The notes under the pieces are model-generated. The model ran no database searches, was not told the DNA's origin, and was given only the letters and a program-made list of their open reading frames with translations. Source: an uncultured Gammaproteobacteria bacterium (GTDB taxonomy: Bacteria > Patescibacteriota > Patescibacteriia > Magasanikbacterales > UBA922). Taken from it: a stretch of DNA of 64,000 nucleotides. The translations under genes were made by a program, and so were the position numbers. The stretch is from contig CAZQXB010000001.1 in the NCBI GenBank assembly GCA_964597575.1, positions 964 to 64,963 of the forward strand, written 5' to 3'. The number at the start of each line of letters is the position of its first letter. Position 1 is the first letter of the stretch. Of the stretch, positions 7,370 to 9,074 are shown piece after piece.

Positions 7370-7576
7370 CTAAAAATCACACTTTATCGGATTACCGTTT
7401 CTATCATATTGATACGGAAGATCTTTTATCGCCTCACAGGAAACTGGGTTTGCAAAGATGGTTGAGGGGAGCACACCAAGACCCACTAAAATGAAAAGTA
7501 CTACTAACGAAATGAGCCAGGCTAAACACCCCCAGGTATTATCTCTCCACAACATGTCTTTTACTTCTCCAGCCAT
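7370..7576 (-). CDS. Small membrane protein (68 aa from MAGEVKDML) with one transmembrane helix and a Cys-containing C-terminal tail; the fourth gene of a small-membrane-protein operon
   Basis: Its ATG lies 1 nt after the stop of the upstream ORF (cataatATGgct), and it contains a hydrophobic helix LAWLISLVVLFILVGLGVL. The longer ORF-track version (7370..7654) overlaps the preceding gene in another frame and is less likely. Confidence 0.35.
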   Translation of the reverse strand: MAGEVKDMLWRDNTWGCLAWLISLVVLFILVGLGVLPSTIFANPVSCEAIKDLPYQYDRNGNPIKCDF

Positions 7577-7577
7577 A

Positions 7578-7895
7578 TTATGAGACGTTAGGTTTCTTGA
7601 AAAAATTTCTCCGAAGAAATCGGACACGATCAATTGCCAAATAAGCAAATACACCGAATGCTATAATCATGAGAAGTGTATCGAGAGAGAACAATAAATG
7701 CGGCACCTTCAAATTAAACAGGATAATTCGTCCCATGTTAAGACATAATCCAGCAGCCATAAGAATAAGCAGAATACTTGCTTCTTTTTGAGGAAAACTT
7801 TCGAGCCAGACCGAAAGAATTCGTAAAAACTGCATTGAAGCTAATTTTAAATTTACCCACTCTGGCGACGAAAATGGCTGCGTAAATCGGTTCAT
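7578..7895 (-). CDS. Small membrane protein (105 aa, 2 predicted TM)
   Basis: ORF track. Hydrophobic segments ILLILMAAGLCL and LLMIIAFGVFAYLAI. Confidence 0.4.
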   Translation of the reverse strand: MNRFTQPFSSPEWVNLKLASMQFLRILSVWLESFPQKEASILLILMAAGLCLNMGRIILFNLKVPHLLFSLDTLLMIIAFGVFAYLAIDRVRFLRRNFFKKPNVS

Positions 7896-7909
7896 AATAT
7901 TTAGTATGA

Positions 7910-8110
7910 TTACCCTCCAGTATACTGACTAAAAAGCCCAAAGACGTAATCTAAGAAACTTCCTCCGAAATAGACGGTCAATACCAGCAAAAGAAGGCTA
8001 AGAAAAACACACCCGCCACACCCCGAAGACTCCAGGATCGCCTTACGATCTTCATCTGTTACACCAAGATCTTTTAATACCTTATCTTCGATAATTCCTG
8101 GAGGGGTCAT
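7910..8110 (-). CDS. Small membrane protein (66 aa, 1 TM, CGGC motif)
   Basis: Its ATG overlaps the stop of the upstream gene (ATGA), indicating translational coupling. Confidence 0.4.
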   Translation of the reverse strand: MTPPGIIEDKVLKDLGVTDEDRKAILESSGCGGCVFLSLLLLVLTVYFGGSFLDYVFGLFSQYTGG

Positions 8111-8403
8111 ATAATATGGCCTCCTCTAAAAAAACGAAAGCATCGCGATAGCACTAATCCGCAAAAGAGAAAAATAAGGACTAGACCAATAAGGGATGTA
8201 TCAAAAAAATTCCATTGAATAACCCTCCATATTGTCACACAAGAGAGAAGGGCAATGTATGTATATACCGCAAATGTAACACTCGCCAAAAGGCGGACAG
8301 GAAGTGCCTCACCCCAGGCGAGAAGCGCGCGAATAAGCTGCCAAAACGTGGCACGTACTCCTATCCAGGCAGTATTTCCCTTAAATAAAACGGGCTGATC
8401 CAT
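8107..8403 (-). CDS. Small membrane protein (98 aa, 2 TM)
   Basis: ORF track. It lies directly downstream of the YjdF-like gene with a short spacer and a partial Shine-Dalgarno sequence. Confidence 0.45.
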   Translation of the reverse strand: MDQPVLFKGNTAWIGVRATFWQLIRALLAWGEALPVRLLASVTFAVYTYIALLSCVTIWRVIQWNFFDTSLIGLVLIFLFCGLVLSRCFRFFRGGHII

Positions 8404-8429
8404 ATACCTTCATCCTACTTAAAAAGCAT

Positions 8430-9074
8430 TTATTTGACAAGAGAGGCCTCACCTTTGTTTGGAAGAAATTTGGTGAGCATTTGATCGTGCATCCTCGACA
8501 AGAAAAGAAAGGCCGTAGTCGCACCAATGAGGCACAGGAGCATATCTGACTGGGTATCCCAGACATAGCCCTGGGTTCCAAGGAAATCAGTAGTCGCTTC
8601 CCCACCAGTAACAGCCCCAAACCATTCAATAAATTCGTATACCGCACTCATCGCTAAACAAACTGAGACGACAATAAAAGGCAGCCATCTTTTTTTCGCC
8701 ACCACCCCGAGACGAATAAACACTTCTCGAATAGCTAATGCCGGCACAAACCCCTGCATGAAGTGCCCCACTTTATCATAGTTATTTCTCTCAAATACCC
8801 CCCACTCCTTCAACCACTCGAATGCAGGGACTTTCGCATAGGTGTACTTCGCCCCGATCATCAGAACAATGGTGTGGAGGGCAATAAAGCAATACAAAAA
8901 TGGTGTAAGGGGAAATCGTTTTCGTGTAACAAAAAGAACAATAAACGCGATGGCCGCTGGGGCCACCTCTAGCACCCAAGTAAAGTAATCATGGGGTTTG
9001 TACGCCGACCATCCAAGAACAAAAAGACAGATGGCAACAAGAATCTTTTTATAATGCGTCTCCAAAAATGACAT
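8430..9074 (-). CDS. Polytopic inner-membrane protein, YjdF/DUF2238-like
   Basis: It is 214 aa with ~5-6 hydrophobic helices. The family assignment rests on length, topology and remembered motifs only. Confidence 0.45.
   Translation of the reverse strand: MSFLETHYKKILVAICLFVLGWSAYKPHDYFTWVLEVAPAAIAFIVLFVTRKRFPLTPFLYCFIALHTIVLMIGAKYTYAKVPAFEWLKEWGVFERNNYDKVGHFMQGFVPALAIREVFIRLGVVAKKRWLPFIVVSVCLAMSAVYEFIEWFGAVTGGEATTDFLGTQGYVWDTQSDMLLCLIGATTAFLFLSRMHDQMLTKFLPNKGEASLVK

What the first reader, a model, noticed from the sequence alone, without database searches (positions are those of the whole stretch)
7370..9074. Tightly coupled minus-strand operon of four tiny membrane proteins downstream of a YjdF-like gene
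The genes at 8107-8403, 7910-8110, 7578-7895 and 7370-7576 encode 66-105-aa proteins with 1-2 TM helices. Two junctions are overlap-coupled: ATGA between the first two genes, and a stop separated by 1 nt from the next ATG at 7576. Two of the products carry short Cys motifs, CGGC and C...C. None matches a family I recognise. The layout resembles holin or bacteriocin-immunity clusters, toxin and membrane-antitoxin clusters, or subunits of a small membrane complex.
Basis: seen in the sequence. Interest (0 to 1): 0.55.

Follow-up and report, generated by a model that had tools for sequence, protein, structure and literature searches.

The report
Orphan small-membrane-protein cassette beside a lipid enzyme
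Four tiny membrane-protein genes in a Dojkabacteria (candidate phyla radiation) genome are real and conserved, form two duplicated gene pairs that always sit next to a predicted lipid head-group enzyme, and belong to no known family, but their function is still only inferred.

Summary
ORFs A (8107-8403), B (7910-8110), C (7578-7895) and D (7370-7576) exist as described. They are genuine genes: five further related Dojkabacteria lineages keep orthologues in the same order, with the same sizes and junctions, and all show fewer non-synonymous than synonymous changes.

New points:
- A and C are paralogues (hhalign E=2e-8). Each has an N-terminal amphipathic helix plus a two-helix hairpin.
- Each is tightly coupled to a single-pass partner (B, D) that carries an invariant Gly-Cys at the edge of its TM helix. 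The cassette is therefore a duplicated two-gene module.
- One nested lineage keeps only C-D.
- A more distant relative lacks DUF2238 and all four genes, leaving the flanking methyltransferase and RluA genes adjacent.
- The upstream gene belongs to the DUF2238 ("Wok", Lipocone superfamily) family, a predicted lipid head-group transferase, and keeps every family-invariant polar residue.
- An exhaustive profile search of 1.84 billion proteins finds the A/C family only in this clade.
- There are no Pfam, NCBIfam, PHROG, PADLOC, PDB, phage or plasmid matches.

Best reading (about 0.4): the four proteins are lineage-specific accessory subunits of the Wok enzyme. The holin, bacteriocin-immunity and toxin-antitoxin readings have no support. 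This is an orphan family of moderate interest.

The parts
8430..9074 (-). DUF2238 / 'Wok' family (Lipocone superfamily) integral membrane protein, 214 aa. It is the proposed partner of the small proteins.
   Evidence: Pfam PF09997 at E=1e-53. NCBIfam PRK09867 scores 208 bits, below the equivalog cut-off of 353. It keeps every polar residue that is at least 97% invariant in 84 family members, including H104, E147, E150, D173 and D177. The family is described as Wok in bioRxiv 10.1101/2025.01.14.632903.
8107..8403 (-). Gene A, 98 aa: an N-terminal amphipathic helix plus a two-helix hairpin and a basic C-terminal tail. Paralogue of C.
   Evidence: ORF. Orthologues in L089, L009/L010/L091, L092 and L096. 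Identity to the window protein is 37-39%, with pN below pS. AF2 gives three helices. hhalign A family vs C family: 95% probability, E=2.3e-8.
7910..8110 (-). Gene B, 66 aa: an acidic N-terminal region, an invariant SxGCGGC motif, one TM helix and a short amphipathic tail.
   Evidence: ORF. Six orthologous sequences have 22 invariant columns. In the close pair L009/L010 there are 0 non-synonymous and 5 synonymous differences.
8009..8020 (-). CGGC (CxxC) motif of B, immediately N-terminal to its TM helix.
   Evidence: Read directly from the sequence. Invariant in all B orthologues. The back-translated motif occurs only in cassette-bearing loci among the 88 loci held at that point.
8107..8110 (-). 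ATGA stop/start overlap between A and B (translational coupling).
   Evidence: The 4-nt overlap is present in all five lineages that have A-B.
7578..7895 (-). Gene C, 105 aa: the same three-helix architecture as A, with a basic C-terminal tail.
   Evidence: ORF. Orthologues in all six lineages. Identity is 47-52%. AF2 model has pLDDT 80 with helices H11-32, H37-63 and H71-97.
7370..7576 (-). Gene D, 68 aa: a short N-terminal region, an invariant Gly-Cys, one TM helix, and a C-terminal tail with a Cys pair.
   Evidence: ORF. The start at MAGE is supported by orthologues; the GTG-extended 94-aa ORF is not. Identity to L089 is 67%. G16 and C17 are invariant in 5 sequences.
7526..7531 (-). Gly16-Cys17 of D, at the N-terminal edge of its TM helix.
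   Evidence: Invariant columns. Coordinates derived from the D start at 7576.
7576..7580 (-). C stop codon (TAA), 1 nt, then the first base of the D ATG: a close-coupled junction.
   Evidence: The gap is 1-7 nt in all six lineages.
9078..10001 (-). SAM-dependent methyltransferase, the upstream boundary of the five-gene block. The true start may be an internal ATG, about 9977.
   Evidence: Pfam PF10672. The gene call in L001 gives 299 aa. In relative L004 this gene is followed directly by RluA.
6702..7355 (-). RluA-family pseudouridine synthase, the downstream boundary of the block.
   Evidence: Pfam PF00849. In L004 it lies 3 nt after the methyltransferase, with no DUF2238 or small genes between them.

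Best explanation
The four ORFs are real genes for small integral membrane proteins. They are organised as two copies of one two-gene module, A-B and C-D.

In each module the first gene encodes a roughly 100-aa protein with an interfacial amphipathic helix and a two-helix membrane hairpin. The second gene is translationally coupled to it and encodes a roughly 67-aa single-pass protein with an invariant Gly-Cys at the N-terminal edge of its TM helix.

I propose that each pair forms a 3-TM heterodimer made in equal amounts through the coupling. I further propose that these heterodimers assemble in the membrane with the product of the gene immediately upstream. That protein is a DUF2238/'Wok' Lipocone enzyme, predicted to exchange or remove phosphate-linked lipid head groups at the outer leaflet. 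The small proteins would act as lineage-specific accessory or regulatory subunits that stabilise, position or gate the enzyme.

Shown here: coding status, conservation, A/C paralogy, conserved coupling, helix architecture, invariant Cys residues, co-presence and co-absence with DUF2238, and restriction to one Dojkabacteria clade.

Inferred only: co-transcription, heterodimer formation, physical association with DUF2238, and any effect on lipid chemistry.
For: 1. Coding status and constraint. Six lineages carry the genes in the same order and with the same sizes: the window, L089/L090, L009/L010/L091, L092, L096 and L093-95. pN is below pS for all four genes. In the close pair L009/L010, A has 11.5 non-synonymous against 18.5 synonymous changes and B has 0 against 5.
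2. Duplicated module. hhalign of the A family against the C family gives 95% probability and E=2.3e-8 over 81 columns, whereas the cross-controls A-B, C-D, A-D and C-B give E=0.09-0.5. Reciprocal HMM searches return the other family as the next-best hits. The AF2 helix maps of A and C are the same.
3. Pairing. The A/B overlap is -4 nt in 5 of 5 lineages and the C/D gap is 1-7 nt in 6 of 6. The B/C gap is 14-31 nt and the DUF2238/A gap is 26-54 nt.
4. Link to DUF2238. In all six lineages the cassette starts 26-54 nt after DUF2238. The more distant relative L004 has the methyltransferase and RluA genes 3 nt apart, with neither DUF2238 nor the small genes.
5. Partial redundancy. The nested lineage L093-95 keeps DUF2238 and C-D only.
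6. DUF2238 here keeps all family-invariant polar residues, so it is probably active (active-site description).
7. General precedent, from established knowledge: small membrane proteins encoded next to a larger membrane protein usually act by binding it. Examples are KdpF, CydX and AcrZ. A review, PMC12648545, was retrieved, but only its abstract was read.
Against: The association with DUF2238 rests on what is probably a single ancestral insertion inherited vertically, so it counts as one evolutionary event rather than six. The whole minus-strand run from FBA to the PHP gene is tightly packed, as is usual in small CPR genomes, so adjacency alone is weak evidence.

None of 78 other DUF2238 loci from other phyla (47-58% identity) has A-D homologues or a recurrent 2-TM plus 1-TM pattern downstream. 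DUF2238 therefore does not generally need such partners.

The small proteins evolve much faster than DUF2238: 37-67% against 77% identity. No interaction, expression or lipid data exist. Multimer modelling was not possible with the tools available.
Confidence: 0.4

Rival explanations
1. The four proteins form an autonomous small membrane complex whose function is unrelated to DUF2238. Possibilities include a lineage-specific envelope, stress or small-solute function. They would merely be co-inherited with DUF2238 because both arrived in one insertion into a compact operon.
For: Every piece of evidence for coding status, pairing and duplication fits this reading equally well. DUF2238 elsewhere has no such partners. 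CPR genomes pack unrelated genes into long co-directional runs.
Against: DUF2238 and the cassette have stayed immediately adjacent (26-54 nt) through divergence at which synonymous sites are saturated. They are present or absent together in every locus examined.
Confidence: 0.3
2. The cassette is a thiol-based relay in the membrane. The CxxC of B, the boundary Cys of D and the Cys within the TM helices of A and C would bind or pass a soft metal ion or reducing equivalents across the membrane, working like MerT/MerF or CcdA.
For: The Cys residues are among the invariant positions in otherwise fast-evolving proteins: CGGC in 6 of 6 B sequences, GC in 5 of 5 D sequences, and C81 in all A sequences.
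Against: No Pfam or NCBIfam similarity to Mer, CcdA, DsbD or VKOR families. No reductase, thioredoxin or metallochaperone gene lies nearby. The C-D module that suffices in lineage L093 has only one invariant Cys, and the TM Cys of C is missing in 2 of 6 lineages.
Confidence: 0.08
3. B and D are substrates rather than subunits. The Wok enzyme would transfer a phosphatidyl or other lipid group onto the invariant Gly-Cys at the membrane boundary, a non-canonical protein lipidation. A and C would present the substrate.
For: The invariant G-C abuts the TM helix in both B and D. Lipocone enzymes are predicted to transesterify phosphate-linked lipid head groups at the outer leaflet. Another Lipocone family, Skillet-1, has been predicted to lipidate neighbouring proteins at a Gly-Ser lipobox-like motif. 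The N-terminal tails of B and D are short and net acidic, so an N-out topology is possible.
Against: The Cys precedes the hydrophobic segment instead of following it, and there is no signal peptide, so this is not a lipobox. Topology is unresolved. The precedent is itself only a prediction. There is no biochemical evidence.
Confidence: 0.07
4. The cassette is a conflict or lysis element: a holin/antiholin pair, bacteriocin-immunity proteins, or membrane toxin-antitoxin pairs.
For: The proteins are about 100 aa with 2 TM helices and basic C-terminal tails. They occur as overlapping two-gene modules, evolve fast, are duplicated, and one module has been lost in one lineage.
Against: The cassette sits at the same chromosomal site between housekeeping genes in six vertically related lineages. 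No endolysin, bacteriocin precursor, exporter, integrase or other mobile-element gene lies nearby. There are no PHROG or PADLOC hits and no relatives in IMG/VR, GenBank phages or plasmids. The A/C family is absent outside this clade among 1.84 billion representative proteins. Purifying selection acts on all four genes.
Confidence: 0.07
5. The ORFs are non-coding, or are frameshifted fragments of a decayed larger gene.
For: The four ORFs lie in three different frames, and single-sequence searches returned only self hits.
Against: The same four separate ORFs, with the same boundaries, starts and overlaps, are kept in relatives at 37-67% amino-acid identity with pN below pS. Shuffles never reproduce the tiling.
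Confidence: 0.01

Closest known systems
Operon-encoded small accessory membrane subunits (KdpF of KdpFABC, CydX of cytochrome bd, AcrZ with AcrB)
   Same: They are small proteins with 1-2 TM helices encoded next to, and presumably co-translated with, a larger membrane protein. They have no catalytic motifs of their own and are lineage-restricted. This rests on established knowledge; a review, PMC12648545, is listed.
   Different: There is no sequence or fold similarity. Here there are four proteins in two paralogous pairs of 66-105 aa, larger than most of the classical examples. The proposed partner is a Wok/DUF2238 enzyme, for which no partners have been described. Binding has not been shown.
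DUF2238 / Wok family of the Lipocone superfamily (E. coli YjdF type)
   Same: The gene at 8430-9074 is a clear member and keeps the conserved His, Glu and Asp positions.
   Different: The published contexts for Wok are synaptojanin-like, calcineurin-like and HAD phosphoesterases, carotenoid genes and glycosyltransferases, not small membrane proteins. A-D are not members of this family.
Skillet-1 Lipocone with adjacent lipobox-like 'GS' proteins (a prediction in bioRxiv 10.1101/2025.01.14.632903)
   Same: A Lipocone enzyme is encoded next to proteins that carry an invariant Gly-plus-nucleophile dipeptide beside a hydrophobic segment.
   Different: The Lipocone family differs. The nucleophile is Cys rather than Ser. 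The motif lies before the TM helix rather than after a signal-peptide h-region. The precedent is itself untested.
Class II holins
   Same: About 100 aa, two TM helices, a basic C-terminal tail and a neighbouring small membrane partner.
   Different: There is no lysis cassette, no prophage, no PHROG hit and no viral relative, and the locus is a fixed housekeeping site.
MerT/MerF-type Cys-bearing small membrane transporters
   Same: Small membrane proteins with functionally conserved Cys or CxxC at or within TM helices.
   Different: No sequence similarity and no mer or other metal-resistance genes nearby.

Membership tests
DUF2238 / Wok (for the neighbour gene at 8430-9074) | Match to Pfam PF09997 above the gathering score | tested here: met
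   181 bits against a cut-off of 26.4, E=1e-53.
DUF2238 / Wok (for the neighbour gene at 8430-9074) | Conserved polar pocket residues: His in H2, Glu in H3 and Asp in H4, as described for Lipocone domains | tested here: met
   H104, E147/E150 and D173/D177 are 100% conserved in 84 aligned family members and present in the window protein. Assigning these residues to helices H2-H4 is my inference.
E. coli YjdF equivalog (NCBIfam PRK09867) | Score at or above the curated equivalog cut-off | tested here: not met
   208 bits against a cut-off of 353. It is the same family but not an equivalog.
Holin (phage lysis protein) | Encoded in a phage or prophage lysis cassette next to an endolysin | tested here: not met
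   The neighbours are DUF2238, a methyltransferase, RluA, a PHP-domain gene and CofD. This holds in all lineages.
Holin (phage lysis protein) | Similarity to a known holin or viral protein family | tested here: not met
   No PHROG hit with E below 0.1. No relative in IMG/VR for A, B, C or D. No GenBank phage match for D.
Holin (phage lysis protein) | Small protein with at least one TM helix and a charged C-terminal tail | tested here: met
   A and C each have two TM helices and a basic tail. This feature is not specific to holins.
Bacteriocin immunity protein | Adjacent bacteriocin precursor and/or a dedicated exporter or processing genes | tested here: not met
   No such genes within 6 kb on either side in the window or in L089. 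No plasmid relative for B.
Toxin-antitoxin module | Patchy, mobile distribution and similarity to known TA or defence families | tested here: not met
   One fixed syntenic site in six lineages. No PADLOC hit with E below 0.03. The A/C family is confined to this clade.
Toxin-antitoxin module | One product is toxic and is neutralised by its partner | not testable with these tools
   Requires expression experiments.
Bacterial lipoprotein (for B and D) | Lipobox [LVI][ASTVI][GAS]C at the end of an N-terminal signal peptide | tested here: not met
   The Gly-Cys precedes the only hydrophobic segment, and the N-terminal regions are hydrophilic and acidic.
MerT/MerF/CcdA-type thiol membrane proteins | Sequence match to the family models | tested here: not met
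   No such Pfam or NCBIfam hits for any of 20 cassette proteins.
Accessory subunit of a larger membrane protein (a functional class, not a sequence family) | Physical association with the partner | not testable with these tools
   Only gene adjacency and co-occurrence were tested.

The most novel reading that the evidence does not exclude
The adjacent Wok/DUF2238 Lipocone enzyme uses the invariant Gly-Cys at the membrane boundary of B and D as an acceptor and attaches a lipid head-group-derived moiety to it. This would be a previously unknown, Lgt-independent protein lipidation system in a CPR bacterium. The A/C hairpin proteins would act as substrate-presenting adaptors.
Probability: 0.07. 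Interest if true: 0.8.

Novelty: new variant of a known kind. Interest (0 to 1): 0.37.

Why it matters
DUF2238/Wok is one of the most widespread bacterial membrane protein families that has no experimentally determined function. E. coli YjdF is a member. So far there is only a prediction that it acts on lipid head groups.

A clade in which the enzyme is locked to a conserved, duplicated pair of small partner proteins gives a concrete handle for co-expression, pull-down, lipidomics and cysteine-mutant experiments.

The result also adds three or four orphan small-membrane-protein families, with alignments, to the very poorly annotated membrane proteome of the candidate phyla radiation. It shows a clear case of a two-gene small-protein module that duplicated in tandem and was later partly lost. 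If the proteins prove to be merely lineage-specific membrane proteins of minor function, the finding is ordinary for CPR genomes.

Tried and rejected
- Single-sequence searches of A and C against 5.8 billion proteins returned only self hits. Relatives appeared only after syntenic loci were fetched through DUF2238 and a profile was built.
- Pfam, NCBIfam, PHROGs and PADLOC gave nothing below E=0.01 for any of 20 cassette proteins. Weak hits (IBV_3A, YijD, PDC-M48A) were rejected as TM-composition noise.
- Sequence-profile searches of the A/C, B and D families against the PDB found no hit below E=0.1.
- Foldseek searches with the A and C models found nothing below E=1. The DgkA match at E=6 is not meaningful.
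- Three hits of the exhaustive search (P0011-P0013) are repetitive, probably eukaryotic, junk that matches by summed short repeats.
- B-D paralogy was tested and not demonstrated. hhalign gives E=0.08, no better than the controls.
- The CofD-anchored scan of GTDB genomes showed that most Dojkabacteria lack synteny here. Only L004 was informative.
- A survey for a general 'DUF2238 followed by small TM proteins' pattern was negative. The candidates L074 and L078 turned out to be unrelated proteins.
- The promoter and terminator scan was no better than shuffles. One 9/12 promoter-like site lies at 8440-8412, just upstream of A.
- Charge counts did not resolve the topology of B and D.
- The GC profile shows only a mild dip (0.375-0.39) over C and D, not a clear foreign island.
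Full report
**1. What is in the sequence**

The window comes from a Dojkabacteria (WS6, candidate phyla radiation) genome. CofD relatives are Dojkabacteria MAGs. The four proteins occur on an NCBI contig of 913,817 bp. The 23S rRNA carries about 450 nt of insertions, and no 16S gene lies beside the 23S and 5S genes in the window.

On the minus strand a tightly packed run reads as follows:
- FBP aldolase
- NTP-transferase
- HAD phosphatase
- CofD
- SAM-methyltransferase (9078-10001)
- DUF2238 (8430-9074)
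- A (8107-8403, 98 aa)
- B (7910-8110, 66 aa)
- C (7578-7895, 105 aa)
- D (7370-7576, 68 aa)
- RluA (6702-7355)
- PHP/MJ0043_C (5440-6711)

A and B overlap by ATGA. The stop codon of C is 1 nt from the ATG of D. B follows with a 14-nt gap before C, and DUF2238 with a 26-nt gap before A. B carries CGGC at residues 31-34 (8009-8020). D has Cys17, Cys46 and Cys66. Same-strand ORFs tile the whole 1034-nt stretch, and none of 5000 shuffles exceeded 82% coverage.

**2. Are they genes?**

Single-sequence searches found only the proteins themselves. I therefore fetched relatives through the neighbouring genes.

A metagenome scan with the DUF2238 protein gave two close relatives, L009 at 80% and L010 at 78% identity. 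Their downstream DNA encodes clear homologues of A, B and C in the same order. A profile of these sequences recovered further members. An exhaustive HMMER search of 1.84 billion representative proteins added three more. Looking up their contigs gave six lineages in all:

| Lineage | Gene order |
|---|---|
| window | DUF2238-A-B-C-D |
| L089/L090 | complete: FBA, CofD, GNAT, MTase, DUF2238, A97, B68, C105, D69, RluA, PHP |
| L009/L010/L091 | DUF2238-A-B-C, plus the start of D |
| L092 | DUF2238-A-B-C-D |
| L096 | DUF2238-A-B-C-D-RluA-PHP |
| L093/L094/L095 | DUF2238-C-D-RluA-PHP |

Sizes, order and frames are kept. The A/B overlap is 4 nt in all five lineages that have A-B. The C/D gap is 1-7 nt in all six. 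The B/C gap is 14-31 nt and the DUF2238/A gap is 26-54 nt.

Amino-acid identity between the window and L089 is 37% for A, 39% for B, 52% for C and 67% for D. The neighbours are more conserved or similar: DUF2238 77%, methyltransferase 89%, RluA 73%, PHP 62%, CofD 67%. pN is below pS for every gene. In the close pair L009/L010, A has 11.5 non-synonymous against 18.5 synonymous changes, and B has 0 against 5.

These are real genes that evolve fast but under constraint. The start of D at MAGE (7576), rather than the upstream GTG, is supported by the orthologues.

**3. Anatomy**

A and C are paralogues. The evidence is as follows:
- BLASTP of the two window proteins gives E=4e-4.
- hhalign of small alignments gives E=3e-5.
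- hhalign of 7- and 6-sequence alignments gives 95% probability and E=2.3e-8 over 81 columns. The four cross-controls give E=0.09-0.5.
- HMMs of each family retrieve the other family as their next-best hits, ahead of every other ORF in 96 loci and the window.

AlphaFold2 gives the same three-helix map for both proteins. A has H11-32, H36-64 and H69-93 (pLDDT 67). C has H11-32, H37-63 and H71-97 (pLDDT 80, pTM 0.63). The first helix is amphipathic and holds the three residues, apart from the initiator Met, that are invariant across both families: W13, W30 and P35. The other two helices are hydrophobic, and the C-terminus is basic.

B and D are single-pass proteins. In B the motif S-x-G-C-G-G-C sits directly before the TM helix and is invariant in six sequences. 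In D, G-C sits directly before the TM helix and is invariant in five. B-D homology is not demonstrable, with hhalign E=0.08.

A has an invariant Cys in its last helix. The C-terminal Cys pair of D is kept in three lineages but is absent in L096. Charge counts favour N-in/C-in for C, are less clear for A, and leave B and D unresolved.

The cassette is therefore [2-TM hairpin + 1-TM Cys protein] x 2.

**4. Evolutionary pattern**

Identity matrices and NJ trees for CofD, RluA and PHP place the window as the outlier of the clade. They place the one-module lineage (L093, the same MAG as L002) next to L089 and L096. The four-gene state is therefore ancestral for the clade, and A-B was lost once. This implies that the two modules are at least partly redundant.

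A more distant relative, L004 (CofD 56-58% identical), has the methyltransferase and RluA genes 3 nt apart, with no DUF2238 and no small genes. DUF2238 and the cassette thus form one 1.7-kb block that is present or absent as a unit. Other Dojkabacteria loci are not syntenic here.

Seventy-eight further DUF2238 loci from other organisms (47-58% identity) contain no A-D homologues and no recurring small-TM pattern. The A/C family is confined to this clade among 1.84 billion representative proteins.

**5. What is known about the neighbour**

DUF2238 is the 'Wok' family of the Lipocone superfamily (bioRxiv 10.1101/2025.01.14.632903). These are predicted integral membrane enzymes that swap or remove phosphate-linked head groups of phospholipids or polyprenyl lipids at the outer leaflet. 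Some members are proposed to be cardiolipin-synthase analogues. The window protein keeps every position that is at least 97% invariant in 84 family members, including H104, E147, E150, D173 and D177. It is probably active. It is not an equivalog of E. coli YjdF by NCBIfam's cut-off.

**6. Explanation**

The best-supported reading (about 0.4) is that A-B and C-D are heterodimeric small-protein modules made in equal amounts through translational coupling. They would assemble in the membrane with the Wok enzyme as lineage-specific accessory or regulatory subunits. This is how operon-encoded small membrane proteins generally work; the statement rests on established knowledge, and the review PMC12648545 is listed.

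Sections 2-4 are shown by the data. Co-transcription, dimer formation and association with DUF2238 are inferences. The main weakness is that the association probably reflects one ancestral insertion in a genome where unrelated genes are routinely packed together.

The rivals are these:
- An autonomous small complex unrelated to DUF2238 (0.3).
- A thiol or metal relay, suggested by the invariant Cys residues (0.08).
- B and D as lipidation substrates of the Wok enzyme (0.07). This is the most novel reading. It is prompted by the published prediction that a Skillet-1 Lipocone lipidates neighbouring 'GS' lipobox-like proteins.
- A holin, immunity or TA element (0.07).
- Non-coding sequence or a pseudogene (0.01).

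The conflict-element readings fail on context. The site is a fixed housekeeping locus with no phage, plasmid or defence similarity.

**7. Comparison and novelty**

No membership in any described family can be claimed for A-D. Pfam, NCBIfam, PHROGs, PADLOC, PDB sequence searches and Foldseek were all negative.

Functionally the cassette resembles operon-encoded accessory small membrane proteins. The particular arrangement has not been described: a duplicated 2-TM/1-TM pair attached to a Wok enzyme, with Gly-Cys at the TM edge. I rate it a new variant of a known kind.

The interest is moderate. Orphan small membrane proteins are common in CPR genomes. This cassette is unusually well defined, however, and it gives an experimental handle on the uncharacterised DUF2238/YjdF family.

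**8. Limits**

The trees are single-protein NJ trees.

Noticed in passing
window 15029-18401 (-), 14849-14955 (-): The 23S rRNA spans 3373 nt against a 2925-nt model, so it carries about 450 nt of insertion(s). A 5S gene follows it, but no 16S gene lies adjacent in the window. No ORF of at least 110 aa that looks like a homing endonuclease was seen inside it.
   Followed up: partly
window 3640-3713 (-): A tRNA-Ile with anticodon TAT. This is an uncommon way for bacteria to read AUA; most use a lysidine-modified CAU tRNA.
   Followed up: no
L055, L058, L060, L063, L067, L074, L081, L082 (for example L058 4601-5314 with DUF2238 at 6001-6609): In at least eight DUF2238 loci from other organisms, an RluA-family pseudouridine synthase gene lies about 700 nt upstream of DUF2238. 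RluA and DUF2238 are therefore neighbours outside Dojkabacteria too. Whether this reflects one clade or a recurrent association was not examined.
   Followed up: no
L009 1666-2136; L089 3107-3583: Related genomes carry a GNAT acetyltransferase gene between CofD and the methyltransferase. The window lacks it.
   Followed up: no
L002, L004, L093 (records CAZYEQ01..., CAYGHM01...): These MAG records are titled 'uncultured Gammaproteobacteria bacterium'. Their genes are nevertheless syntenic with Dojkabacteria genes and 56-85% identical to them, so the taxonomic labels are probably wrong.
   Followed up: partly
window 8412-8440 (-): A sigma-70-like site (TTGTCA, 17 nt, TAGGAT; 9 of 12 matches) lies at the end of DUF2238, just upstream of gene A. 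It could be an internal promoter, but the number of such sites in the region equals the shuffle expectation.
   Followed up: partly
window 9953-10001 (-): The TTG start listed for the methyltransferase ORF (307 aa) is probably too far upstream. The gene call in the identical Logan contig gives 299 aa, and orthologues start at the internal 'MISLL' (291-296 aa).
   Followed up: partly
proteins P0011-P0013 (hits of the exhaustive search): Three long, highly repetitive proteins scored E of 1e-4 or lower against the A/C profile through many summed short matches. They look like translated eukaryotic repeats and are false positives, which is a caution for profile searches with short hydrophobic models.
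   Followed up: yes
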